Shown here: positions 4,713-59,481 of the stretch, piece by piece
Layout: the number at the start of each line of letters is the position of its first letter
Numbering within the stretch: the stretch's first letter is position 1
NCBI GenBank assembly: GCA_965220965.1
Contig: OZ244852.1
Location: 1,184,001 to 1,248,000, forward strand
Length of the DNA: 64,000 nt
Origin: Candidatus Marinacidobacterium sp.
Lineage (GTDB): Bacteria; Acidobacteriota; Vicinamibacteria; Marinacidobacterales; Marinacidobacteraceae
Direction: 5' to 3'
The notes under the pieces: generated by a model
Told to the model about the DNA's origin: nothing
Databases searched by the model: none
What the model saw: only the letters and a program-made list of their open reading frames with translations
Program-made: the position numbers and the translations under genes

Positions 4713-6491
4713 CTAGCTCGGCCAGAAGACCGGGATCAGCAGGCTGGCGGTGACGAGCAGGATGAGGTTCAGCGGGCCGCCCACCTTGATGAAGTCGGCG
4801 AACCGGTACCCGCCCGGCCCGTAGATCATCACGTTCGTCTGGTAGCCGAACGGCGTGACGAACGAGGCCGAGGCCCCGAACATGACGGCGATGAGCAGCG
4901 CGTAGGGGTTCATGCCCGCCTGGGTGGCGGCGAAGATCGCGATCGGCGTCAGCATCACCGCGGTCGCCGCATTCGACATGACGGCGCTGACGAGAGCCGT
5001 CAGCAGGTAGAAGGCGGCGACGAGTCCCGTCTCTCCCAGCGGAGCGGCGAGACGCACCACCCCGCCCGCCAGCAACTCCGCCGCTCCGGTGCTCTCGAGC
5101 GCCACGCCGAGCGGGACGAGGCCGGCCAGCACGAAGACGACGAGCCACTCCACCTCGGCGTAGATCTCCTCGATGTGCACGCAGCGGGTGAAGACCATCA
5201 GTCCGACGCCGGTGAGCGCCGCCGTCATGATGTCGAGCAGGCCCAGACTGGCGCTGAGAACGACGCCCACCATGATCGCGGCGGCGACTCCGGCGCGCGG
5301 CCTTCCCCCGGTCGGCGTCTTCACTTCGGCCATCGGCACGAAGCCGGGCTCGTCGGCCAGCCCCTCCAGCGCGTGGGAGGTTCCGTGAACGAGAAGGAGG
5401 TCCCCGACCCGCAGCGAGAGCTCCGCCAGCCGTTCCTTGACGGTGATCCCTCCGTGCTGGATCGCCAGCACGGTGGCCTGGTACCGCTGCGCAAAGCCCA
5501 GATCGCGCAGTGTCCGGCCGATGAGCCCGGAACCGGGCGCCACCAGCAGCTCGACCAGCCGGCCCCGCCCGGCGCTCAGATCGAGTTCGTGCTCCTCGCC
5601 TTCGCGCGGCGTCCGGAGCCGTTGGCGGCGGGCGAGTTCCAGAAGCTGCTCGGCGGATCCCTGGACGTGGAGGATGTCCCCCGGGCGGATGTGCCGTTCG
5701 CCGTGCGGCGCGGTGATCTCCCGTTCTTCGCGGGTGATGTCGAGGACGGTGACGTCGTAGCGCTCGCCCCAGCCCAGCTCCGCCAGCGAAAGGCCGTTCG
5801 CCGGCGAGTCCTCCGGAACGTGCAGTTCCGTGACGAACCGCCGCACGTCGTATTTCCGGGAGAGGTCGGGGGGCCGGATCCGCCGGGGCAGCAGGAGGCG
5901 GCCGACGGTGAAGAGGTAGAGCAGGCCGACCCCGAGACAGATGAGGCCCAGCGGGGTGATGGAGAACATGCTGAGCCCGTCGAACCCGCGGCGAAGCGCC
6001 TCGCCGTGCACCACCAGGTTCGTGGAGGTCCCCATCAACGTGACCGTGCCGCCGAGGATCGAGACGAAGGAGAGCGGCATCAGGTAGCGGGAGGCCGGCT
6101 CCTTCGCCTGTTCGGCGAGGGCGATGAAGACCGGGATAAACACCATCACGACCGCGGTCGTCATCAGGAACGGCGACAGCACCGAACAGACGAGGCAGAG
6201 CAGGAAGAGGCGCCGGTACTTCCCGCCGAGAGGCGCGGTTCGCGCCCACGCCCCGATCGCGGCGACGAGACCGGTCTTCCGGAGCCCCAGCCCCAGCACC
6301 ATCATCGCGGCGACGGTGACCGTGGCGCGGCTCGAGAGGCCCGACACCGCTTCGGCCGGCGTCAGGATCCCGGTCAGGAGGAGTACGACCGGGATCGACA
6401 TCGCGACCTGGTCCAGCCGCAGCCGGTCCAGCGCAAACAGGACCAGCGCCCCCACGGTCAGCGCCAGGACCAGAACGATCTCGAAGGTCAT
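4713..6491 (-). CDS. SLC13-family permease with TrkA-C domains
   Basis: Multiple TM segments, GTSTNL, SNAAT and TPFGYQTNVMIYGPGGYRFADF motifs, central soluble TrkA-C repeats. Confidence 0.9.
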   Translation of the reverse strand: MTFEIVLVLALTVGALVLFALDRLRLDQVAMSIPVVLLLTGILTPAEAVSGLSSRATVTVAAMMVLGLGLRKTGLVAAIGAWARTAPLGGKYRRLFLLCLVCSVLSPFLMTTAVVMVFIPVFIALAEQAKEPASRYLMPLSFVSILGGTVTLMGTSTNLVVHGEALRRGFDGLSMFSITPLGLICLGVGLLYLFTVGRLLLPRRIRPPDLSRKYDVRRFVTELHVPEDSPANGLSLAELGWGERYDVTVLDITREEREITAPHGERHIRPGDILHVQGSAEQLLELARRQRLRTPREGEEHELDLSAGRGRLVELLVAPGSGLIGRTLRDLGFAQRYQATVLAIQHGGITVKERLAELSLRVGDLLLVHGTSHALEGLADEPGFVPMAEVKTPTGGRPRAGVAAAIMVGVVLSASLGLLDIMTAALTGVGLMVFTRCVHIEEIYAEVEWLVVFVLAGLVPLGVALESTGAAELLAGGVVRLAAPLGETGLVAAFYLLTALVSAVMSNAATAVMLTPIAIFAATQAGMNPYALLIAVMFGASASFVTPFGYQTNVMIYGPGGYRFADFIKVGGPLNLILLVTASLLIPVFWPS

Positions 6492-6568: not shown

Positions 6569-6847
6569 CTACCGGCCGAAGCGGCGCGGAGCGAACCGCG
6601 AACCCCAGGGCGTCCGGGGCTTCCTGCGGCGCGGCGGCGGCTTCGGGGGCCTGCTCTCCGGCGTCTCCGACGGAGCGGGTTCCGGCCGCTCGAGATTCAG
6701 GACGACCGGTTGGAGCTGCCGCTCCAACTCTTCCTGCCGTGGTTCCGGGTCCACCCACCTCAGGAAGAACCTCTCAACCCAGTTGAGCCCGTCCCCACGC
6801 TCCCGCCGGACGCTGCGGGAGTCTGTTTCGCCCGTTGATCCGCCCAT
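6569..6847 (-). CDS. Hypothetical ~92-aa protein with Pro/Arg-rich basic tail
   Basis: ATG 6847 preceded by GGAGAG; 3' part of track ORF 6569..7063; fills the gap between the permease and the repeat array. Confidence 0.45.
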   Translation of the reverse strand: MGGSTGETDSRSVRRERGDGLNWVERFFLRWVDPEPRQEELERQLQPVVLNLERPEPAPSETPESRPPKPPPRRRKPRTPWGSRFAPRRFGR

Positions 6848-6898
6848 CGCCCGCTCTCCCAGAGGATAACGCCGGGAAACCGGGCGCGGATCTGGTTG

Positions 6899-7114
6899 CC
6901 GACCTGTTCGCCGCGGCGCTCTTTCCCTATCGGAAGTTGAAATCCAGGGGATTTCAACTTCCGGCGCGTGGCGACCTGCTTCGGCGGTCCCGCAGTTCCT
7001 TATCGGAAGCTGGAATCCTCCCGAACTTCGACTTCCCGCGGCGACTTGCTTCCGCGGTCCCACAGTTCCTTATCGGAAGTCTGAATCGTTCCGATTCAGA
7101 CTTCCGATAAGGAA
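6899..7114. repeat. Three tandem ~70-bp imperfect repeats, each ending in an inverted repeat (hairpin)
   Basis: Units at ~6899, 6971 and 7041 share CGAC(C/T)TG...GCGG...TTCC(C/T)TATCGGAAG. Perfect 15-bp stem 6931-6963 (loop AGG), perfect 23-bp stem 7066-7114 (loop TTC), middle unit degenerate. Confidence 0.9.
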
Positions 7115-7127
7115 TCTTATGTTAAGT
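7100..7127 (+). other. dif: dif-like XerC/XerD recombination site (probable chromosome dimer resolution site)
   Basis: ACTTCCGATAA-GGAATC-TTATGTTAAGT, 11-6-11 layout. Right arm is 10/11 identical to the E. coli XerD arm TTATGTTAAAT; left arm resembles B. subtilis ACTTCCTAGAA. Intergenic; GGGNAGGG polarity flips here. Confidence 0.8.
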
Positions 7128-7194
7128 AGTGAGGTTGGAGCGCGCGGGAGCGGCTACAAGGAGGCGGTTCCAGGAAACAGGGAACGGACGCCCG

Positions 7195-8118
7195 TCAGTC
7201 CTGCTGCGACTCCCGGAACTCCGTGACCGCGCCGTGGAAGACGAAGAGCGCATCGCGGTCATCCGTCGGCGACTCGAAGTTGTAGGTCCGGCCACCCAGG
7301 ACCTTGAGCCGGAGGTTGTTCGCGATGTAATCGAACTCGAACGCCTCGACCTGCGCGAACGGAAGCTGGAAGGCGTCCCGGTGGTCCGTCCGGTAGTCGA
7401 ATCCCTCCGGACCGACATGGAGGACGCCGCTGCAGGACCCGAAGCGGTGCTTGTGGACCACTTCCACGTTGACATCCAGCGTCGCGGTCGGCGCGACCAG
7501 ATCGAAGCGCTCGCGCACCGGAGCGCGCTCGACATGGACCCGCCGGTTCTGGACCTCGTAGCCCTCGGCGGACACCGTGAGCCGGTATTCGCGGGGCTGG
7601 AGATCCCCGATGGTGACCGGCGCGTTGCCCTTGAAGTTCCGGTCGAGGAAGACCATCGCCCCGGGCGGGTTGGAGTCCACCACGATGGAGCCGAGCATCT
7701 CGGCCAGATCCACCGGCACGGAACGCGTCCGGCCGGCGCGGATCGTGATTTCGGCCTCGAACGGGTGGAAGTTCTCGCGCTCGACGCGGAGGTCGTGCGT
7801 TCCGGCGTCGAGGTCTTCCCAGCGTCCCGGGGCCGACCCCAGTTGGCGGCCGCCGAGGAAGACCATCGCGCCCTCGGCCCCGACGACTTCGAGCGCCCCG
7901 GTCGTGGGGGCTGGCGGCGGAGGCGGCCGCTCGGGGGCGTCCGGTTCGGGAGCCGGTTCCGGCTCGGCGGCGGCCGGCGCCTCGTCCACCGGCTCGGAGG
8001 CTGGCTCGTCCCCTCCCCCGCACCCGACGAGCAGGAACGCGCCGAAGAGCGCCAGAAGAAGCGCCGCCAGCCGCGCCGGCGCAGCGTGACTCGGGTGGGG
8101 CCACTGCATCGGAATCAC
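7195..8118 (-). CDS. PEGA domain-containing lipoprotein
   Basis: LLVGC lipobox, Pro/Glu linker, two PEGA-like repeats (GSIVVDSNPPGAMVFLD...G.APVTI). GTG 8118 overlaps the upstream stop (alternative ATG 8109). Confidence 0.8.
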   Translation of the reverse strand: MIPMQWPHPSHAAPARLAALLLALFGAFLLVGCGGGDEPASEPVDEAPAAAEPEPAPEPDAPERPPPPPAPTTGALEVVGAEGAMVFLGGRQLGSAPGRWEDLDAGTHDLRVERENFHPFEAEITIRAGRTRSVPVDLAEMLGSIVVDSNPPGAMVFLDRNFKGNAPVTIGDLQPREYRLTVSAEGYEVQNRRVHVERAPVRERFDLVAPTATLDVNVEVVHKHRFGSCSGVLHVGPEGFDYRTDHRDAFQLPFAQVEAFEFDYIANNLRLKVLGGRTYNFESPTDDRDALFVFHGAVTEFRESQQD

Positions 8119-8621
8119 GCCTCCAGCCGCCGGTAGCCCCGGTTCTGGTAGACGAGCGGCGCCGCGTCCGGCCGCTCGACGGCGGCATCGACGATGCGGC
8201 CGATGAAGAGCGTGTGGTCCCCTTCCCGGTGCGCCGACGCGACTTCGCAGTCCAGCCACCCGATGCAGCCGTCGAGGCGCGGGGGCGCGCCCTCCGGCGA
8301 CGACCCCTCCGCATGGGCGCCGGCGAACTGCTCTGCGCTCCCGAGGCCCGGCCGGGCGAAGTGGTTCGACACGTCCCGCTGGTCCTCTCCCATCAGGTGG
8401 ACCCGGAACCGGCCCGCGGCGATCGCCTCGTGGGCGCGCGCCTCCACCGCAATCGACACCAGGACGAGCGGCGGCTCGAGGCTCACCGAGACGAACGAAC
8501 TCACCGTGATCCCCCGCGGGCCGTCGGCGCCGCGGGCCGTCACCACCGTGACCAACTGGGGCGCCCGCCGCATGAAGTCGCGGAGCAGCTCGCCCGCATC
8601 CGGCGGCGTCGTCACCTGCAA
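8115..8621 (-). CDS. Flavin reductase (DIM6/NTAB family)
   Basis: VTVVT, GITVSSFVSVSLEPPLVLV, GDHTLFIG and PLVY motifs. Confidence 0.92.
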   Translation of the reverse strand: MQVTTPPDAGELLRDFMRRAPQLVTVVTARGADGPRGITVSSFVSVSLEPPLVLVSIAVEARAHEAIAAGRFRVHLMGEDQRDVSNHFARPGLGSAEQFAGAHAEGSSPEGAPPRLDGCIGWLDCEVASAHREGDHTLFIGRIVDAAVERPDAAPLVYQNRGYRRLEA

Positions 8622-10435: not shown

Positions 10436-11314
10436 TCATCCGGAAGCGGAGCGATCCCCCGCTCCATCCCGCTCCGCGCCGTCGCCGCCACCGTCCCCCT
10501 GGTTCGATTCGAGCTGCCGGAGCAGGTCGCGCAGGGCGTCGATGACCTCGGTCTCCTCGACTTCGCTGCGCCGGAACGTCATGTGGAGACGGAACGGGCT
10601 TCCCTTGGGGGCGTACCGGAACACGAAGGGCCGCGCCCGCCCCCTGCCCGCCCGCTTGCGCTTCACCGGCGGCTCGCTCACCCCGGACGCGAGACGCTGC
10701 ACGCATTCGGCCATCGCCTCGGGCGTCGCCTCGCGCGCCACCCGCAGGAGCTGCCGGCGGGAGCGCACGCCGGCCGCCTGACACATCTCGCGGATCTCCG
10801 GGGGGATGTTGAGCAGCGCGAGGGACTCGGTGATGGAGGTCCGGGGTCGCCCGACCCGGCGCGACAGCGACTCGTGGGTGTGGCCGTGCTCCCGGATCAT
10901 CGCCTCGTAGGCGGCCGCCTCCTCGAACGGAGACAGGTCGTCGCGCAGGAGGTTCTCGACGATCGCGAGCTCGAGCGACTCCGCCTCGTCGGCGTCCCGC
11001 TCGACACAGGGGATCTCGCGCATCCCCACCTGGAGCGCGGCGCGGAAGCGGCGTTCCCCGGCGATTATCTGGAAGTCCTTCGGTCCGAGGCGGCGCACCA
11101 GGATGGGCTGCAGCAGCCCCTGCTCGCGGATCGATGTGGCGAGAGCCTCGAGCGACCCGATGCGCTGGCGGGGCTGGTCGGGGTTGGCGTGGATCTGGGC
11201 GACCGGGATCAGCCGGTGGCGGTTCGCCGGTTCGTCCGTGACCAGGCTGGCCACGTAGTGCCGGTCCCGCTTGCGCAGGCCGACCGCCTCAGGCAGACCG
11301 GTTCGCTTTGACAC
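10436..11314 (-). CDS. parB: ParB/RepB/Spo0J family partition protein
   Basis: NPDQPR, GLLQPILVR, IIAGERRFRA (CTPase motif), ENLLRDDLSPFEEA and an HTH region. Confidence 0.9.
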   Translation of the reverse strand: MSKRTGLPEAVGLRKRDRHYVASLVTDEPANRHRLIPVAQIHANPDQPRQRIGSLEALATSIREQGLLQPILVRRLGPKDFQIIAGERRFRAALQVGMREIPCVERDADEAESLELAIVENLLRDDLSPFEEAAAYEAMIREHGHTHESLSRRVGRPRTSITESLALLNIPPEIREMCQAAGVRSRRQLLRVAREATPEAMAECVQRLASGVSEPPVKRKRAGRGRARPFVFRYAPKGSPFRLHMTFRRSEVEETEVIDALRDLLRQLESNQGDGGGDGAERDGAGDRSASG

Positions 11315-12065
11315 GTTCGAGGACTTCCCCGGCGAGCCGCCGGTAGTCGTGAGCGCCGGCGGAGTCCGGCGCGAACGAAAAGATGGACTCCCGGTAGGCC
11401 GGACTCTCCTCCAGCCTCACGTTCCGCCGGACCTTCGCCCGGAAGGTGGCGGCGCCGAAGTGGGTCCGGATGCGGCGCACGGCGTCCTGCGAGATGCGCG
11501 TCCGGGCGTCATGCATGGTGATCGCCACCCCGAGCAGCGCCAGGTCCGGGTTCGGCCGGCGACGGATCTGCTCCACGGTGTCGAGCAGGTCGTCGGCGCC
11601 CTCGAGGGCGTAATAGGAAGGCTGCAGCGGGATCAGCAGGTAGTCGCTCGCGACCAGCGCGTTCACCGTGATGAGTCCCAGGGTCGGCGGGGTGTCGATC
11701 ACGATCAGGTCGAAATCGTCCAGGACGTGCTGGATCCGGTCCCGCAGCCGGTAGTGGGCGTCGATGTCGCCGAGCAACTGGCGCTCCAGCTTGGCGAGGG
11801 ATATGCGCGACGGCGCCATGGAGAGCCGCTCGATGGCGGTCGGGCGGATGATGTCAGCAAACCGCGCTTCCCCCGTCAGGGCCTCCAGCATCGAAGGCGC
11901 TTCCGGGTCCGGGTCGAGGTAGCTGACCGAGGCGTTCGCCTGCGGATCCAGGTCCACCAGCAGCGTGCGCTCGCCGGCCTGCGCGAACGCCGCCGCCAGG
12001 TTGACCGAGGTCGTGGTCTTGGCGACGCCGCCCTTCTGGTTCGCGACGGTGATCGTCGCTCCCAC
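11289..12065 (-). CDS. parA: ParA/Soj family ATPase
   Basis: NQKGGVAKTT deviant Walker A, DLDPQAN, IDTPP. Confidence 0.92.
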   Translation of the reverse strand: MGATITVANQKGGVAKTTTSVNLAAAFAQAGERTLLVDLDPQANASVSYLDPDPEAPSMLEALTGEARFADIIRPTAIERLSMAPSRISLAKLERQLLGDIDAHYRLRDRIQHVLDDFDLIVIDTPPTLGLITVNALVASDYLLIPLQPSYYALEGADDLLDTVEQIRRRPNPDLALLGVAITMHDARTRISQDAVRRIRTHFGAATFRAKVRRNVRLEESPAYRESIFSFAPDSAGAHDYRRLAGEVLERVKANRSA

Positions 12066-12081
12066 GCGCGCCTCCCCTTCC

Positions 12082-12579
12082 CTACTGGGAGTCGCCGAGG
12101 TCCTCGTCGTCGAGGGACTCCAGCCAGTCGGCGAGCGCCTCGCTGTCTTCCGGCGGCTCGCCGTCGGCGATCAGCTCGTCTCCGCTCTGGACGCTCCGCT
12201 CGATGACGCGGGCGTGGGCGTAGATCGGGGCGCGGGTGCGGAGCGCGATGGCGATCGCGTCGCTCGGGCGCGCATCGATCACGAGCCGCAGGCGCTTGCG
12301 CTCGATGTGGATGTGCGCGTAGAAGGTGTTCCGCCGCAGGTCGTGGATCACGACCTTCAGAACGCGGGCGTCCAGCTCGCGCAGCAGCTCGCGGATCAGA
12401 TCGTGGGTCAGGGGCCGCGGGGGCTCGTAGTTTTCGACCTGGAGGCCGATGGCGCGGCACTCGAGCGGCCCGACCCGGATGGGGAGCTCGCGGTTGCCCG
12501 GCTCCTCCTTGAGCATCACGACCGCCGAGTTGTCCCTCGGGAGCATGAAGATCGCCTTGATGCTCATCTCAACTTCCAT
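12082..12579 (-). CDS. Bifunctional nuclease family protein (DUF151)
   Basis: LPIRVG, PPRPLTHDL and IDARPSDAIAIALR; ATG 12579. Confidence 0.9.
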   Translation of the reverse strand: MEVEMSIKAIFMLPRDNSAVVMLKEEPGNRELPIRVGPLECRAIGLQVENYEPPRPLTHDLIRELLRELDARVLKVVIHDLRRNTFYAHIHIERKRLRLVIDARPSDAIAIALRTRAPIYAHARVIERSVQSGDELIADGEPPEDSEALADWLESLDDEDLGDSQ

Positions 12580-14047
12580 CGCGCACTCCCTGGAACAACG
12601 AGGGCGCTCCACCGGCCAGCACCGGAAGCGGAATCTCCGGCTGCCGGCGGGACGGCGCGGCGAGCGTCGAAGCGGGTCGCTCCGGCGACGTGAGTTCGCC
12701 CCGGAGACTGTTGGGGCCGAACCCGGTGATGGCGACCCGGGCGAAGGCCCCGACGAGCGACGCCGGGCCCGGGAAGTTGACCACCCGGTTGTCCTCGGCG
12801 CGGCCCGCCAGGAAGTCGCCCCGGCGACTCGGACCTTCGACAAGAACCTCCACCTCGCGACCCACGAGCGCGGCGTGGAGCTCGAGCTGGATCGCGCGCT
12901 GCCGCGCCTGAAGCTCCATCAGCCGCGCGGTCTTCTCGCCGTCCGGCACATCGTCGGGCAGGCGCTTCACCGCGAGCGTGTGGGGCCGCTCGGAGTACTT
13001 GAAGGAATAGGCGGAAGAAAACCGGACTTCGTCGAGCAGGCTGAGCGTGTCCTCGAATTCCGCGCGGGTCTCGCCGCAGAACCCGACGATCAGGTCGGTG
13101 GAGAGCGCGAGGCCGGGCGCCTTCTCCCGGGCGTCCGTGACCAGCCGCAGGAACTCCCCGCGGCTGTAGCCGCGCCGCATCCGCTCGAGCACGCTGGTCG
13201 AGCCGGACTGCGCCGGGAGGTGCATGTGCGGCATGAGCGGACCGCCCGCGGCGAACCGCTCCATCAGCGCCGGGCTGAAGTCCTTCGGATGGGGGCTGGT
13301 GAACCGGATGCGGCGGATCCCCGAAACGGCGGAGACGGCGTCGATCAGCGCCGCGAAGTCCCGCCCGTCCTCCGGATCCCGGTAGGAGTTCACGTTCTGC
13401 CCGAGAAGCTGGATCTCGCGGAAGCCGTCGCCGGCGAGGGCCTCCGCTTCGCGGACGACCGACCCGACCGTGCGACAGCGTTCCCTGCCCCGGGTGAAGG
13501 GCACGACGCAGAACGAACAGAAGTTGTCGCAGCCCTCCATGATGGTGATCCACGCCTTGACGCCGGGGACGCGCTCGATCTGTTCCGGCGGGATGTCGAG
13601 GTTGTCGGCGTGGCGTCCGGTTTCCACGATCCGGGTCTCGCCGTCGAGCAGACGCCGCACGATCTGCGGAAGACGGACCAGCGCCTGCGTGCCCAGCACG
13701 AAGTCCACCGCCGGGGCGCGGGCGAAGATCGCCTCGCCTTCCTGCTGGGCGACGCAGCCGGCGACGCCGATCAGCAGCGGGCGCGAAGCCCGGGCGCGGC
13801 CCTTGCCGCCCACGAGCTGCTCGACCCGGGAAAACACCTTCTCCTGGGCTTTCTCGCGCACCGAGCAGGTGTTCAGCACCACGATCTCGCCGCCGGGATC
13901 GGCCTCTCCCCTCGCCGGGCGGGCGCCGAGCGACCCGAGCGCCGCCGCCATCTTCTCCGAGTCGTGGACGTTCATCTGGCAGCCCCAGGTCTCGATGCGG
14001 TATCGAAGACCGGGGTCGCCCGGCGAACGGTCCTGAGCGGGGGGCAT
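12569..14047 (-). CDS. miaB: tRNA-2-methylthio-N6-dimethylallyladenosine synthase
   Basis: TWGCQMNVHDSE, NTCSVREKA, radical SAM CxxxCxxC (GCDNFCSFC), C-terminal TRAM domain. Confidence 0.95.
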   Translation of the reverse strand: MPPAQDRSPGDPGLRYRIETWGCQMNVHDSEKMAAALGSLGARPARGEADPGGEIVVLNTCSVREKAQEKVFSRVEQLVGGKGRARASRPLLIGVAGCVAQQEGEAIFARAPAVDFVLGTQALVRLPQIVRRLLDGETRIVETGRHADNLDIPPEQIERVPGVKAWITIMEGCDNFCSFCVVPFTRGRERCRTVGSVVREAEALAGDGFREIQLLGQNVNSYRDPEDGRDFAALIDAVSAVSGIRRIRFTSPHPKDFSPALMERFAAGGPLMPHMHLPAQSGSTSVLERMRRGYSRGEFLRLVTDAREKAPGLALSTDLIVGFCGETRAEFEDTLSLLDEVRFSSAYSFKYSERPHTLAVKRLPDDVPDGEKTARLMELQARQRAIQLELHAALVGREVEVLVEGPSRRGDFLAGRAEDNRVVNFPGPASLVGAFARVAITGFGPNSLRGELTSPERPASTLAAPSRRQPEIPLPVLAGGAPSLFQGVRDGS

Positions 14048-14056
14048 GCCCGGACG

Positions 14057-15859: not shown

Positions 15860-15995
15860 CTAGGGGAGGAATCGCCTGGGGAATCGTCGCGGAGCGCGGG
15901 GGTATTCGGCGGGGTACGAACGGCGCCCGAATGCGCCTCCGCCGAACCGCGCGGATCCTACGCCCGGTGGACTCCCGGTAGGCCGCCGCGGCGGC

Positions 15996-18467
15996 CTACC
16001 GGGACTCGTCCCGGATGGCCTCCAGCCGCTCGCGGGCCACGGTGAACCGTTCGAGGATGCGGGGGATTCCGGTGTCGCCGTAGCGGGCCAGCGTCCGCGC
16101 CTCCGCCACCACGAGCGCCCGCAGGAGGTCCCCGGCGGCGGCGCGCGCCGCCGAAGGGTCGGTGCTCCCGACCTCGCCAACCCACACCGGCGATGTCTGC
16201 GCGAAGACCGAGCCGTTCATCCCCGGCCAGGCCTCCTCGCCGCCGTGCGCGCGGACGGCGACCCATCCCCCGGACGGCAGGTCGAGCGCGCCGCTCAGCT
16301 CCCGGCGGCCCGGCCCGTCGAGGCCGGCGAGCGTCTCGACGACGGTCCCGTTGACGAGGAGATCGACCTGCGCCACCGCGCCCGCCGAGGCGAGCGTCAG
16401 CTCCCAGTTGGCGGTCTCCGCAACCGGCGCGACGCCGCCCGGTCGTTCTCCGCCGAGGCGGAAGTCCAGGAGGGGCCCGGTGCTCACGAAGCTGCGTCCT
16501 GCCCGCAGCGCCTCGAGATAGGGGCCGAGGCGGAACGGTCCCGGAGCATGGACGTAGACCCGGGTCGTCCCGACCGCCATCGTCCGGTGGTAGTTAAGCA
16601 TCACGTCGGTGCCAGCGGAGGCGGCCAGCGGGATCCCGAGGTTCAGGACCCTGCCCCACAACTCGGCGGTCCCCGCCTCGCTCGTCCACAGACACGCGAT
16701 CTCCAGCGTGTCCAGATCGCCCAGCACGGCGTCCGGCACGAAGCTCACCGGGATCGCCGAGAGCCCCGCCTCGCTCCCGAAGGGGTCGGGGACGCTCACC
16801 GGATGCATGTAGGCGCTCACCCCCTGCTGGCTCCGGGCGTGCGCCAGCGCGTCCCGGTTGGGGCGATCGTCGTCGGCGTAGACCGGGTAGCCGGGCCCCC
16901 AGAACCACGGCCAGAAGGCGCTCTCGATGCCGATGAGGCCCAGATGCCCGAGGAAATGGGACCGGATCTCCTGCCCGAAGAGCACCGCCGGAACCCGGTC
17001 CACCCGACGGTCGGCGAAGAACTCGGTGTCGTTCCGTCGATGGTGCAGGTTCGCCATCAGCGGGGTCCCGAAGTCCACATCCTCGGCGGCGAGGAGGAAC
17101 TCCAGATCGCCGGGCGTCAACCGGACCGGACCGCCGTAGTTCAGGTGGAAGTGGTGGTCGGCGGAGCGGTAGCCGGCTTCGCGCGGGTCCCAGAGCGGAT
17201 CCAGCTCGAGGACCAGCTCCCGCAGCTCGCCGGCCGCGACCTCGACCGAGCCGGTCGCCACGGTGTGCGAGAACCCGTGGGCGGCGATGACGCGGACCTC
17301 GCCGCCCGGCGCCGCCGGAACCTCGACTTCCACGACGCCGGGCGAATACCAGAAGACCCGTCCGTGGGTCCCGTCGACCCGCGCGAAGGCGTCCGGATGA
17401 AACACCGGATGGCCCGCGGGATCCGTGACCGCAAGCCTCGCCGGGAGCGGGGCGGCGACGCCGCGCCTCTGCGTCGTGATCCGCACGCGCGCCAGGGGAA
17501 CGCCGAAGTCCCACGCCCGCACCGGAACCAGCTCCACCGGGCCGCCGCGCGTGCTGGCGCGCTTCAGGTGGAAGCGCTCGTCGTCATCCGCCTCGACATA
17601 GAAGACGGATCGCCCGTCGGCGGTCGGCGCCGGGGTGAGCGGCAGGCCCCGGGCGGCCACGATCTCGATCGGGTCCGGGTTCTCCGGGTCCACCAGCAGC
17701 AGCCGGTATCCGTCGCGCCCGTCCCCGGCGGGCCAGTTCACCGCGATCGTGGCGCCCGAGGGGTGGGCGCCGGGGCGCGCCTGCGATGCGATGGACTCGG
17801 TCCTCAGCTCGCGCTCCACGCCCTCGGCGTCCCGATGGACGAGGGCGTCCGGCGAGGAGCGCCCCTTCGAGAGGTAGGCGACGCCCCCGCCGGCGAGCGG
17901 CTGCGGCCGGACCTCCAGCCCGCGCCGGCTGGTGATCCGCGCGGGCTCGCCCGAGCGCGCTTCCAGCCGCCAGATGTCGAGATCCCCTTCGGAGGCGGCG
18001 CTGAAGTAGAGGTCCTCGCCGTCCGGAGACCACGCCGGATCGAGGACGATGGCGTCGTCCCGGAACAGCAGCGACTCCTCGCCGGAAGCGAGGTCGAGCG
18101 ACCAGAGCGCGAGCGTCGCCGAGTCGTCGCGGAGGAAGGCCAGCGCGCTCCCATCCGGCTTCCAGGTCGGCCGGGAGTCCAGCGCCGGGGAGTCCGTCAA
18201 CCGCGTGGCAACGCCGGTCTCGAGGTCGAGCAGCCAGAGCCAGCCGCGCGCGGCGAAGGCGACGCTCGCCCCATCGGGAGACGGCGCCGGGTCGGTGGGG
18301 CCGAAGGCGCTGATCGGAAGCTCGAAGCCCTCGACGTAGACGTGGTGCGAGTAGCCCTCGAGGCGGGCGTAGCGGTTCGTCCACTGGGCCGACGCCGCCG
18401 AGGAAAACAAGGCGGCCAGCAACAGCGCGACCGCGAAGCGGTTCGTGAAGGAGCCTGTGGCGCGCAT
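15996..18467 (-). CDS. Secreted CehA/McbA-type (PHP-like) metallohydrolase with N-terminal TolB/PD40 beta-propeller
   Basis: Signal peptide, SPDG/PTWKPDG/PAWSPDG repeats, ADHHFH, GHL, YMHP, AGTD, GRSFVSTGP; ATG 18467 with GGAGG. Confidence 0.75.
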   Translation of the reverse strand: MRATGSFTNRFAVALLLAALFSSAASAQWTNRYARLEGYSHHVYVEGFELPISAFGPTDPAPSPDGASVAFAARGWLWLLDLETGVATRLTDSPALDSRPTWKPDGSALAFLRDDSATLALWSLDLASGEESLLFRDDAIVLDPAWSPDGEDLYFSAASEGDLDIWRLEARSGEPARITSRRGLEVRPQPLAGGGVAYLSKGRSSPDALVHRDAEGVERELRTESIASQARPGAHPSGATIAVNWPAGDGRDGYRLLLVDPENPDPIEIVAARGLPLTPAPTADGRSVFYVEADDDERFHLKRASTRGGPVELVPVRAWDFGVPLARVRITTQRRGVAAPLPARLAVTDPAGHPVFHPDAFARVDGTHGRVFWYSPGVVEVEVPAAPGGEVRVIAAHGFSHTVATGSVEVAAGELRELVLELDPLWDPREAGYRSADHHFHLNYGGPVRLTPGDLEFLLAAEDVDFGTPLMANLHHRRNDTEFFADRRVDRVPAVLFGQEIRSHFLGHLGLIGIESAFWPWFWGPGYPVYADDDRPNRDALAHARSQQGVSAYMHPVSVPDPFGSEAGLSAIPVSFVPDAVLGDLDTLEIACLWTSEAGTAELWGRVLNLGIPLAASAGTDVMLNYHRTMAVGTTRVYVHAPGPFRLGPYLEALRAGRSFVSTGPLLDFRLGGERPGGVAPVAETANWELTLASAGAVAQVDLLVNGTVVETLAGLDGPGRRELSGALDLPSGGWVAVRAHGGEEAWPGMNGSVFAQTSPVWVGEVGSTDPSAARAAAGDLLRALVVAEARTLARYGDTGIPRILERFTVARERLEAIRDESR

Positions 18468-59421: not shown

Positions 59422-59481
59422 CCGACCCGGCGGCTCATCCGCGTCGGAGGGTCCGACGCGGAGGGCCGCCGCTCTTCGGAG

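What the first reader, a model, noticed from the sequence alone, without database searches (positions are those of the whole stretch)
6899..7127. Tandem array of XerC-arm hairpins fused to the dif site: candidate undescribed Xer-linked system
Seen: three ~70-bp units abut dif. Each holds an inverted copy of the dif left arm plus part of the spacer. On the minus strand they read ACTTCCGATAA-GGAACT, GCTTCCGATAA-GGAACT and ACTTCCGATAG-GGAAAG, with GC-rich sequence in place of the XerD arm. The dif-proximal unit forms a perfect 23-bp stem with dif itself (7066-7114). Unit 1 forms a perfect 15-bp stem whose inner sequence differs yet still pairs (TGAAATCC/GGATTTCA versus CTGAATCG/CGATTCAG), which looks like compensatory change. 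Known: IMEX elements use folded ssDNA hairpins (CTXphi) or sites with a defective XerD arm (TLCphi) to integrate at dif. Inference: serial scars of Xer-mediated integration, a dif-anchored array growing one unit at a time, or a cruciform/extra XerC loading module that regulates dimer resolution. No integrase or phage gene is nearby.
Basis: partly seen in the sequence, partly recalled or inferred. Interest (0 to 1): 0.78.

Follow-up and report, generated by a model that had tools for sequence, protein, structure and literature searches.

The report
Inverted XerC half-site repeats beside dif
Next to the site where this bacterium untangles its replicated chromosomes lie three short repeats, each holding a backwards copy of half of that site; this is real and unusual, but seen in one genome only, and it may be either a helper element or a harmless duplication.

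Summary
Window 7100-7127 is a canonical 28-bp dif. Its XerC side carries a non-coding array of period 70-73 bp (6893-7106). Each unit holds an inverted copy of the XerC arm plus the first 4 nt of the central region (14-15 of 15 nt) and no XerD arm (1-2 of 11). The proximal copy forms a perfect 23-bp palindrome with dif, and the distal unit a perfect 15-bp stem. The motif occurs nowhere else in the 64-kb window. It has no match in phage, plasmid or Rfam libraries. No other of 119 dif flanks from other genomes has such an array.

The integration-scar reading fails. The copies are inverted, not direct, and unit junctions lie inside the arm, not at the XerC cleavage point. The best reading is a locally generated inverted and tandem duplication of dif's XerC half-site. 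It leaves three XerD-less XerC half-sites on the side where plasmid Xer sites carry accessory DNA. A function (accessory or decoy XerC binding, cruciform) is inferred, not shown.

The host is a Gemmatimonadota bacterium. Interest is moderate.

The parts
7100..7127 (+). dif site: XerC arm 7100-7110, central region 7111-7116, XerD arm 7117-7127
   Evidence: Sequence. Unique in the window. Its core pattern is shared with dif-like sites of 119 loci from many phyla. It has the same miaB-BFN-parA-parB neighbourhood as dif in Acidobacteriota loci. The XerC arm is identical to the dif predicted for Solibacter usitatus in Kono 2011, supplementary file 2.
7066..7114 (.). Perfect palindrome with 23-bp arms and a 3-nt loop (7089-7091). 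The right arm is an 8-nt outer flank, dif's XerC arm and the first 4 nt of the central region. Its outer edge lies in the middle of the dif central region.
   Evidence: I2. It is the longest perfect palindrome in the window. DNA fold of -26.5 kcal/mol.
7037..7106 (+). Unit U2 (dif-proximal): GC-rich segment 7037-7065, inverted XerC half-site 7066-7080, inner stem and loop 7081-7099, ACTTCCG 7100-7106 (shared with dif)
   Evidence: Half-site 15/15 identical to dif.
6964..7036 (+). Unit U1: GC-rich segment 6964-6995 (25/32 identical to that of U2), inverted XerC half-site 6996-7010 (14/15), degenerate hairpin, ACTTCC end
   Evidence: D2, 84% over 58 nt; hairpin only -4.2/-5.3 kcal/mol.
6893..6963 (+). 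Unit U0 (distal): inverted XerC half-site 6923-6937 (14/15), perfect 15-bp stem 6931-6945/6949-6963, ACTTCCG end. The left part, 6893-6922, is only weakly alignable to the other units.
   Evidence: I4; -16.2 kcal/mol; 9-12 of 32 columns.
7195..8259 (-). PEGA-domain protein gene, transcribed towards dif from the XerD side. It is the last of a run of ten minus-strand genes that includes parB 10436-11314 and parA 11289-12065.
   Evidence: Pfam; ORF and GC3 lists.
4713..6491 (-). SLC13/CitMHS transporter gene with two TrkA_C domains, on the XerC side and transcribed away from dif. Its best relatives name the host lineage.
   Evidence: Pfam. Homologues of 79-85% identity are named Gemmatimonadales or Candidatus Palauibacter sp..
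6569..6847 (-). 92-aa orphan ORF between the array and the transporter gene. It is context only, not part of the array.
   Evidence: Present in the protein collection as P0001, with no other homologue at E <= 0.01.

Best explanation
The site at 7100-7127 is the chromosome's dimer-resolution site, dif. The ~210 bp on its XerC side is a local, non-coding product of two duplication steps. It is not a mobile element.

Step 1 (inferred): dif's extended XerC half-site (9-nt outer flank, 11-nt arm, first 4 nt of the central region) was copied in inverted orientation just outside the arm, by template switching or fold-back synthesis. This gave a palindrome that ends in mid central region.

Step 2 (inferred): a ~70-bp segment containing that inverted copy was duplicated in tandem, so three inverted half-sites now lie 70-73 bp apart.

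Shown: the anatomy, its non-random nature, the absence of XerD arms, the inverted orientation, the junction positions, and the absence of other copies in the sequence available.

Inferred consequence: each unit is an XerC-only binding site that cannot complete recombination. Together they would load or hold extra XerC on the XerC side of dif. That is the side where the plasmid sites cer and psi carry accessory DNA, and the logic resembles the extra TnpI-binding motifs DR1-DR2 beside the Tn4430 core site. The proximal palindrome could also extrude as a cruciform whose four-way junction lies in the dif central region. I rate the local-duplication origin as likely and the accessory or decoy function as possible only.
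For: Anatomy and statistics:.

Local rather than dispersed:
- A profile of the three units run with nhmmer --max finds only the units themselves and their palindromic mirror images. This holds in the 64-kb window and in 1.23 Mb of other dif flanks.
- Against plasmids (72,556 records) and phages (50,697 records) there is no match better than E = 0.06, and none covers more than 18% of the query.
- No Rfam family comes near its gathering score.

The site is a real dif:
- The miaB-BFN-parA-parB-dif order is shared with Vicinamibacterales loci L038 and L062 and Thermoanaerobaculia loci L025 and L031.
- Across the fetched loci, GC skew is higher on the XerC side than on the XerD side in 38 of 43 loci with at least 7 kb on both sides.

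The half-site is the best-kept part of the units: 13 of 15 columns are invariant, against 22 of 59 elsewhere (Fisher p = 0.00065).

The same design recurs once with a different arm. L038 (Vicinamibacterales) has an inverted copy of its own arm plus 3 central-region nt, 7 bp from dif (11-bp perfect stem, -21 kcal/mol). So the inverted copy tracks the local arm sequence.

Geometry: about 207 bp lie on the XerC side, and unit spacing of 70-73 bp is roughly seven helical turns.

Precedent for recombinase-binding accessory motifs: PMC2847244 (abstract and passages read).
Against: - One genome only; no relative was examined.
- The conservation contrast depends on the unit phase. If U0's left part is simply unique flank, the only fair comparison is U1 against U2: arms 20/22 against the GC-rich part 25/32, p = 0.19. 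Getting 14 of 15 is expected 13% of the time at that divergence.
- Perfect stems with mirrored changes can come from template-switch mutation without any selection.
- The design is rare. Among the 113 control loci scored, 3 have an inverted XerC-arm copy upstream (L027, L038, L093). One of these (L093) is a whole second dif. One search adds a 9-bp stem over the arm in L056.
- No other of 119 dif flanks has a tandem repeat of period 10 or more within 30 bp of dif.
- The gap between the back-to-back arms is 19 bp here and 7 bp in L038, so no fixed protein geometry is conserved.
- From recall, not tested here: E. coli XerC binds a lone half-site weakly without XerD.
- No XerC, XerD or FtsK gene lies in the window, so the cognate proteins were not examined.
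Confidence: 0.4

Rival explanations
1. Neutral by-product. The origin is the same (template switch plus slippage at a break-prone, recombination-prone terminus site), but the copies are not bound to any effect and are simply decaying.
For: U1's hairpin has decayed. The GC-rich parts of U1 and U2 differ at 7 of 32 positions, and the arm conservation is not significantly higher (p = 0.19). The design is rare among other dif sites. L056 shows another small rearrangement around the XerC cleavage point, which suggests dif flanks collect such scars.
Against: All three half-sites keep 14-15 of 15 nt, although the U0 flank is otherwise unalignable. Spacing is kept at 70-73 bp. Two of the three hairpins are perfect.
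Confidence: 0.25
2. Hairpins serve transcription, not Xer. They would be terminators or 3'-end stabilisers of the PEGA gene run (REP-like), or operator repeats for the downstream 92-aa ORF and transporter operon. The overlap with the dif arm would be incidental or a matter of economy.
For: The array lies between two co-directional minus-strand genes, 68 nt beyond the PEGA stop codon. In L038 the dif hairpin also follows a gene (parB) that reads into dif from the XerD side. The minus-strand RNA folds strongly (z = -6.5).
Against: There is no T/U tract after the stems on the transcribed (minus) strand. The terminator scan finds hits only on the plus strand, which has no upstream gene. The other two perfect palindromes of the window, at gene ends, are GC-rich 11-16 bp stems of a different style. 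This reading gives no reason for 15-nt identity to the XerC half-site in three copies. No sigma-70-like promoter is found.
Confidence: 0.15
3. Footprints of a Xer-exploiting element, such as an IMEX, a CTX-like folded ssDNA site or an integron-attC-like mini-cassette, inserted serially at dif.
For: The units show conserved boxes, a variable but self-pairing inner stem and a fixed length, a pattern recalled from attC sites. The order GC-rich part, inverted half-site, hairpin, arm, central region is what a single-strand XerC exchange with a hairpin would leave on the dif-proximal side (own derivation). [quoted passage not shown]
Against: The copies are inverted to dif, whereas integration gives direct repeats. 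The junctions ACTTCC(G)|GC-rich lack the 8 nt (ATAAGGAA) that exchange at the XerC cleavage point predicts. There is no XerD arm (1-2 of 11). There is no cargo and no phage or plasmid match. There is no second functional site in the units' orientation at the far end of the array.
Confidence: 0.07
4. Dispersed REP, REPIN or MITE, or remnants of a dif-targeting insertion sequence (ISAba32 group of the IS1202 family).
For: That IS group inserts on the XerC side of dif or xrs sites. It builds arrays in which the proximal copy is the newest, and it leaves partial copies (bioRxiv 10.1101/2022.12.17.520857, section 9 read; PMC10132070, abstract start from the search listing only). Hairpin units of about 70 bp are REPIN-sized (recalled).
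Against: There is no other copy in the 64 kb. None of the 26 ORFs scanned against Pfam is a transposase or a RAYT. There is no 5-6 bp direct repeat, and no element end lies 5-6 bp outside the arm; instead the palindrome uses the arm itself. Genome-wide absence could not be tested.
Confidence: 0.08
5. Assembly or sequencing artefact.
For: Palindromes and tandem repeats are places where assemblers and some library methods make errors (general knowledge).
Against: The units differ from one another (79% matches), so this is not a collapsed or expanded identical repeat. Both flanks are unique. The locus lies inside a 2.88-Mb contig. The palindrome is short and internal.
Confidence: 0.02

Closest known systems
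Accessory sequences of the plasmid Xer sites cer (ColE1) and psi (pSC101)
   Same: There is roughly 200 bp of extra DNA directly on the XerC-binding side of a XerC/XerD core site. In cer and psi this DNA shapes the synapse and restricts recombination to resolution. The side and size are partly recalled; the role of PepA, ArgR and ArcA is from the abstract of bioRxiv 10.64898/2026.02.23.706985, seen in the listing.
   Different: The known accessory DNA binds PepA with ArgR or ArcA, not the recombinase. It is plasmid-borne and has no copies of the XerC arm. Here the site is chromosomal and the repeated motif is the XerC half-site itself.
[quoted passage not shown]
   Same: A tyrosine-recombinase core site is flanked on one side by extra copies of the recombinase's own binding motif. 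These act as dispensable accessory sequences that impose topology and the order of strand exchange (PMC2847244, abstract and passages).
   Different: It involves a different recombinase and a transposon rather than a chromosome. It has two motifs close to the core rather than three at 70-bp spacing, and no hairpins. No binding has been shown here.
IMEX attachment sites (CTXphi folded attP, TLCphi attP with a poor XerD arm)
   Same: They use dif-like sequences with a good XerC arm. CTXphi has two such sites in inverted orientation (PMC4246890). TLCphi tolerates a defective XerD arm (PMC9226527 and PMC6744903, abstract starts from the search listings only).
   Different: Those are kilobase-sized elements with genes. 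They integrate to give direct repeats, with junctions at the cleavage points. Here the units are 70 bp with no genes, are inverted, and have junctions inside the arm.
dif/xrs-targeting insertion sequences (ISAba32/ISAjo2 group, IS1202 family)
   Same: They are the only described process that builds an oriented array specifically on the XerC side of dif, with the newest copy nearest to dif.
   Different: They are about 1.5-kb IS with a transposase, terminal inverted repeats and 5-6 bp target duplications, inserted 5-6 bp outside the arm. None of these features is present here.
Inverted duplications that include dif
   Same: Lactobacillus delbrueckii ssp. bulgaricus carries a 47.5-kb inverted repeat at the terminus that includes the putative dif, giving two dif sites in opposite orientation (PMC5345009, passages).
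   Different: Those duplicate the whole site, or tens of kilobases. Here only the XerC half-site is copied, three times.

Membership tests
Chromosomal dif (XerC/XerD site) | 28 bp made of two 11-bp arms in imperfect inverted symmetry around a 6-bp central region | tested here: met
   7100-7127. The XerC arm and the inverse of the XerD arm share 8 of 11 nt.
Chromosomal dif (XerC/XerD site) | Sequence of the conserved type, single copy | tested here: met
   The core pattern is shared with 119 loci from many phyla. There is one site in the window. The XerC arm equals that of the dif predicted for Solibacter usitatus.
Chromosomal dif (XerC/XerD site) | Located at the replication terminus (GC-skew switch, converging gene orientation) | tested here: inconclusive
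   GC skew in the window is flat (-0.006 against -0.004). Ten consecutive genes on the XerD side and two of four on the XerC side point towards the site. The neighbourhood is shared with dif of Acidobacteriota loci. The whole chromosome was not available.
Chromosomal dif (XerC/XerD site) | Cognate XerC, XerD and FtsK present and acting on the site | not testable with these tools
   None of the 26 ORFs scanned is a tyrosine recombinase.
IMEX integration array | dif-like sites in direct orientation flanking each inserted element | tested here: not met
   All three copies are inverted relative to dif.
IMEX integration array | Junctions at the arm/central-region cleavage point | tested here: not met
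   The junctions read ACTTCC(G) followed by GC-rich DNA. The 8 nt ATAAGGAA are absent.
IMEX integration array | Element cargo (replication or phage genes), or similarity to known elements | tested here: not met
   The units are 70-73 bp and non-coding. There are no phage or plasmid matches.
CTXphi-type folded attP | A hairpin whose stem provides both an XerC and an XerD binding arm | tested here: not met
   The stems contain the XerC arm only. The XerD-arm position matches in 1-2 of 11 nt.
REP / REPIN / MITE | Many dispersed copies in intergenic regions of the genome | tested here: inconclusive
   There are 0 copies outside the array in 64 kb. The rest of the genome was not available.
dif-targeting IS (ISAba32 group) | IS end 5-6 bp outside the XerC arm, a 5-6 bp direct repeat, and a transposase gene or an IRL remnant | tested here: not met
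   The palindrome uses the arm itself, there is no direct repeat of the 5-6 bp flank, and there is no transposase. The features are as described.
Recombinase-binding accessory motifs (Tn4430 IRS type) | Extra copies of the recombinase's binding motif on one side of the core | tested here: met
   Three copies are 14-15 of 15 nt identical to the XerC half-site, all on the XerC side and all in one orientation. This is met at sequence level only.
Recombinase-binding accessory motifs (Tn4430 IRS type) | The motifs are bound by the recombinase and change the selectivity or order of strand exchange | not testable with these tools
   This needs binding and recombination assays.
cer/psi-type accessory region | Binding sites for PepA with ArgR or ArcA; plasmid-borne; FtsK-independent | not tested
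   The site is chromosomal (2.88-Mb contig). Sites for the accessory proteins were not searched, because no reliable motif for this phylum was at hand.
Intrinsic terminator | GC-rich stem followed by a T/U run on the transcribed strand | tested here: not met
   The consensus scan gives hits only on the plus strand, which has no upstream gene. It gives none on the minus strand.

The most novel reading that the evidence does not exclude
A chromosomal dif carries its own recombinase-only accessory module. Three XerD-less XerC half-sites sit at about seven-turn spacing, next to a palindrome that can place a four-way junction in the dif central region. The module would pre-load XerC and wrap or fold the XerC-side flank. 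That would give topological or supercoiling control of dimer resolution, or a stop for FtsK or forks arriving from that side. Such control is so far known only from plasmid sites, which use PepA, ArgR or ArcA, and from transposon resolution sites.
Probability: 0.15. Interest if true: 0.75.

Novelty: new variant of a known kind. Interest (0 to 1): 0.45.

Why it matters
Chromosomal dif is usually treated as a bare 28-bp site whose control comes from FtsK. If extra XerC half-sites beside dif are bound and matter, chromosomes too could use accessory DNA to control Xer recombination. That would also give a simple natural substrate for studying XerC-only complexes and cruciform-recombinase interplay. 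If the array is only a scar, it still records the kinds of errors (inverted and tandem duplication ending in mid central region) that occur at a site which is cut and rejoined in many cell cycles. Either way, it warns dif-annotation and IMEX-detection pipelines that XerC-arm copies next to dif need not mean integration.

Tried and rejected
1. Comparison with relatives failed. None is close to the window, and none is named Gemmatimonadota. Only afterwards did one search show that the host is a Gemmatimonadota (Candidatus Palauibacter-like) with many relatives at 79-85% identity for the flanking transporter. Their dif flanks stayed unchecked.

2. I used the 119 loci as controls instead.

3. I tried to reach relatives through spurious ORFs over the array. 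Searching the 164-aa ORF 6569-7063(-) returned only the window's own 92-aa ORF.

4. Rfam at a permissive threshold gave only chance microRNA-like hairpin hits far below gathering scores.

5. Phage and plasmid blastn gave only short chance matches.

6. A recalled 16-nt parS consensus had 0 matches at up to 3 mismatches in the window. The closeness of parAB to dif is therefore not explained by a visible parS cluster.

7. CRISPR-like reading rejected: the variable part is itself palindromic, there are only three units, the 'spacers' are homologous, and there are no cas genes among the scanned ORFs.

8. Coding reading rejected on GC3.

9. GC skew of the window is uninformative about the terminus.

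10. The inner stems contain TGAAT...ATTCA-type half-palindromes that recall arginine-repressor boxes of cer. This is from recall, the spacing differs, and it was not tested, so no weight is given to it.

11. One search failed on a frame error and was corrected.
Full report
**What is there**

The window is about 71% G+C. Position 7100-7127 (+) reads ACTTCCGATAA GGAATC TTATGTTAAGT, a 28-bp site with the layout of dif.
- It is the only such site in the window: 1 match at up to 3 mismatches against 0.01 expected, and the XerD arm is unique.
- The 702 bp between the PEGA-domain gene 7195-8259(-) and the SLC13/CitMHS transporter gene 4713-6491(-) (Pfam) contain the dif and, on its XerC side, the array.
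- The only long ORF across the array, 6569-7063(-), has GC3 of 0.71, against 0.83-0.93 for the window's genes, so the array is non-coding.
- The lower 92 codons of that ORF (6569-6847) are held in the protein collection as an orphan, P0001.

**Checking the observation**

- Tandem Repeats Finder reports 6923-7094, period 70, 2.4 copies, 79% matches, score 187. The repeat finder gives three copies spaced 73 and 70 bp.
- The two perfect stems are as stated: 7066-7088/7092-7114 (23 bp, 3-nt loop) and 6931-6945/6949-6963 (15 bp).
- Read on the minus strand, the three units carry GGATTTCAACTTCCGATAGGGAAAG, GGATTCCAGCTTCCGATAAGGAACT and CGATTCAGACTTCCGATAAGGAACT. dif's own CGATTCAGACTTCCGATAAGGAATC is on the plus strand.
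- Identity over the arm plus 4 central-region nt is 14/15, 14/15 and 15/15. The position where an XerD arm should be matches in 1, 1 and 2 of 11 nt.

Tests against chance:
- The 14-mer at up to 1 mismatch occurs 4 times in 64 kb, all within 6923-7114, with 0 expected in 100 shuffles.
- Only 4 distinct perfect palindromes of at least 11 bp exist in the window, and two are here.
- The ssDNA fold of 6890-7130 has z = -10.2.

- U1's hairpin has decayed.
- U0's left third is hardly homologous to the other units (9-12 of 32 columns).
- The inner stems are diverged versions of one 9-nt outer flank rather than unrelated sequences.

**Is the site really dif, and whose genome is it**

tblastn of the window's proteins against those loci gave the following:
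- The order miaB, BFN nuclease (PF02577), parA, parB, dif is shared with two Vicinamibacterales loci (L038, L062) and two Thermoanaerobaculia loci (L025, L031).
- In Acidobacteriaceae/Terriglobia loci the order is miaB, BFN, dif.
- In two Armatimonadota loci (L007, L041) the BFN gene abuts dif.
- The window has the same order, with four extra genes between parB and dif. So the site is the orthologous dif.

Further points:
- Over all loci with at least 7 kb on both sides, GC skew is higher on the XerC side in 38 of 43, as expected for terminus sites of one polarity. In the window itself the skew is flat.
- Gene orientation fits converging forks: ten consecutive minus-strand genes lie on the XerD side.
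- The XerC arm equals that of the dif predicted for Solibacter usitatus in supplementary file 2 of Kono et al. 2011 (PMC3025954).
- The transporter's best homologues (79-85% identity) are named Gemmatimonadales or Candidatus Palauibacter sp. The window's own proteins sit on a 2.88-Mb contig.
- The host is therefore a Gemmatimonadota bacterium and the locus is chromosomal.

**Is the unit dispersed or borrowed**

- A profile of the three units, run with nhmmer --max over the window and 1.23 Mb of fetched loci, finds only the three units and their palindromic mirror images. Everything else has E above 0.3.
- blastn against 72,556 plasmids and 50,697 phages gives only chance matches (best E = 0.06, at most 18% of the query).
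- Rfam gives only sub-threshold hairpin look-alikes.
- None of the 26 ORFs scanned against Pfam is an integrase, transposase or phage protein.
- Genome-wide dispersion could not be tested.

**How unusual is it among dif sites**

I used the 119 loci as controls.
- Inverted XerC-arm copy within 250 bp upstream, alignment score of at least 20: 3 of 113 loci (L027, L038, L093). None has one downstream. For the XerD arm, one locus has an inverted copy upstream and one downstream. The window scores highest, at 30.
- Perfect stem of at least 9 bp overlapping dif: 2 loci, L038 and L056.
- At least 9 of the 15 half-site nt paired with upstream DNA in the minimum-energy fold: 6 of 117 on the XerC side and 4 of 117 on the XerD side. 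Only L038 (-21.0 kcal/mol) and L093 (-13.8) are strong, against -33.2 for the window.
- Tandem repeat of period 10 or more within 30 bp of dif: none of the other 119 flanks.

L093 is a different case: it has a second complete dif-like site, inverted, 61 bp away. L038 is the one true parallel. It is a Vicinamibacterales genome whose dif has a different arm (GGGTCCGATAA GGG...) and, 7 bp outside it, an inverted copy of that arm plus 3 central-region nt. The inverted copy therefore follows the local arm sequence, and in both genomes it ends in mid central region.

Xer-mediated integration joins an element's site to dif and leaves hybrid sites in direct orientation on both sides of the element. 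Here all three copies are inverted to dif, and at the far end of the array there is no functional site in their orientation.

I also derived what a CTX-like exchange would leave, that is, XerC exchanging one strand between dif and a folded hairpin. It predicts repeating units of the form GGAA, spacer, inverted half-site, hairpin, full arm. The order of parts fits. However, the observed junctions are ...ACTTCCG|GCGCGTGG... and ...ACTTCC|CGCGGCGA..., so the 8 nt ATAAGGAA that the XerC cleavage position demands are missing at both.

The units also lack any XerD arm, unlike the CTXphi site, which is made of two dif-like sites in inverted orientation (PMC4246890, passage).

The only described process that builds oriented arrays on the XerC side of dif is insertion of ISAba32-group elements, 5-6 bp outside the arm with a 5-6 bp duplication (bioRxiv 10.1101/2022.12.17.520857, section 9). 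None of its marks is present. The scar and growing-array readings are therefore not supported.

**What it most likely is**

The simplest origin has two steps, both inferred:
1. An inverted copy of dif's extended XerC half-site was made just outside the arm by template switching or fold-back synthesis.
2. A ~70-bp segment was then duplicated in tandem by slippage.

The GC-rich parts of U1 and U2 are 25/32 identical, so the duplication is not recent.

Whether the copies are under selection is unclear:
- Over the three-unit alignment the half-site is much better kept than the rest: 13 of 15 against 22 of 59 invariant columns, p = 0.00065.
- If U0's left part is merely unique flank, the fair contrast is U1 against U2, and it is not significant: 20/22 against 25/32, p = 0.19. 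Getting 14 of 15 is expected 13% of the time.
- The mirrored differences between the U0 and U2 stems show that palindromy is maintained. Template-switch correction within a palindrome would do that without selection.

**How it would work if it works**

- Each unit offers XerC an exact or near-exact half-site with the first 4 nt of the central region but no partner arm. XerC could bind there, but a complete XerC/XerD exchange is not expected.
- Three such sites, 70-73 bp apart over about 207 bp on the XerC side, resemble in position the accessory DNA of cer and psi. In logic they resemble the DR1-DR2 TnpI-binding motifs of the Tn4430 resolution site, which impose synapse topology and the order of strand exchange (PMC2847244).
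- The proximal 49-bp palindrome could extrude as a cruciform whose branch point falls between GGAA and TC of the central region, that is, a Holliday-junction-like structure at dif.
- All of this is inference. Points against it: XerC binds lone half-sites weakly in E. coli (recalled); the arm-to-arm gap is not conserved between the window (19 bp) and L038 (7 bp); and the design is rare.

**Rivals**

- Neutral scar: 0.25.
- Transcription-related hairpins: 0.15. The array follows the PEGA gene run, but there is no U tract on the transcribed strand, and the stems are unlike the GC-rich palindromes at other gene ends.
- REP, MITE or IS remnant: 0.08.
- IMEX or hairpin-element footprint: 0.07.
- Artefact: 0.02.

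**Novelty and literature**

- Five searches did not turn up a description of XerC half-site repeats or hairpin arrays beside a chromosomal dif.
- No listed result contained the term Gemmatimonadota.
- Kono et al. 2011 predicted one Gemmatimonadetes and three Acidobacteria dif sites. A term search of its main text found no occurrence of 'flanking' or 'hairpin'.
- These searches cover open-access papers and bioRxiv only.
- I class the feature as a new variant of a known kind, a dif site with an unusual half-site array, if it is functional. Otherwise it is an ordinary, if striking, local rearrangement.

**Limits**

The decisive step is the comparison of dif flanks in Candidatus Palauibacter / Gemmatimonadales genomes, together with a whole-genome scan for the unit.

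Noticed in passing
window 10436-14056, and loci L005, L007, L025, L030, L031, L038, L039, L041, L050, L059, L061, L062, L068: dif keeps a conserved neighbourhood across phyla. The order is miaB, BFN bifunctional-nuclease gene (PF02577), dif in Acidobacteriaceae/Terriglobia, with parA-parB inserted before dif in Vicinamibacterales, Thermoanaerobaculia and this Gemmatimonadota window. The BFN gene lies 0-13 bp from dif in two Armatimonadota loci. parAB beside dif, rather than beside the origin, and a nuclease gene tied to dif both seem worth a study of their own.
   Followed up: partly
L093, about 61 bp upstream of its dif (623-bp locus; Planctomycetota MAG): There is a second complete dif-like site (XerC arm, a different 6-nt central region, XerD-like arm) in inverted orientation next to the first. 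The arrangement recalls pdif-module boundaries, or a miniature of the inverted dif pair in Lactobacillus delbrueckii.
   Followed up: no
L056, the 25 bp upstream of its dif (Acidobacteriaceae MAG): There is a direct 8-nt duplication (TAACAGAT) spanning the XerC arm / central-region boundary, preceded by an inverted copy of the outer 7 nt of the arm. This is another small rearrangement centred on the XerC cleavage point.
   Followed up: no
window 19777-54018 (+): One open frame of 11,414 codons is built largely from near-identical 285-bp (95-aa) fibronectin-type-III repeats. The arrays have 12.4 and 54 copies at 95% and 88% matches. Big_2, He_PIG and cadherin-like domains are also present. It is a giant surface protein gene about 12 kb from dif.
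   Followed up: partly
window 7100-7127: The XerC arm and the inverse of the XerD arm differ at only 3 of 11 positions (CCG against AAC). An inverted XerC arm is therefore also an 8-of-11 match to a direct XerD arm, and the two recombinases must tell the arms apart on very few bases.
   Followed up: no
window 6569-6847 (-): A 92-aa ORF between the array and the transporter gene is present in the protein collection, but no homologue was found at E <= 0.01. Its GC3 was not measured in the correct frame, so whether it is a real gene is open.
   Followed up: partly
window 15973-16004 and 59438-59462: Apart from the two stems in the array, these are the window's only perfect palindromes of at least 11 bp. 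Both are GC-rich and both sit at gene 3' ends, one between convergent genes. They probably show this genome's style of U-tract-less terminator.
   Followed up: no
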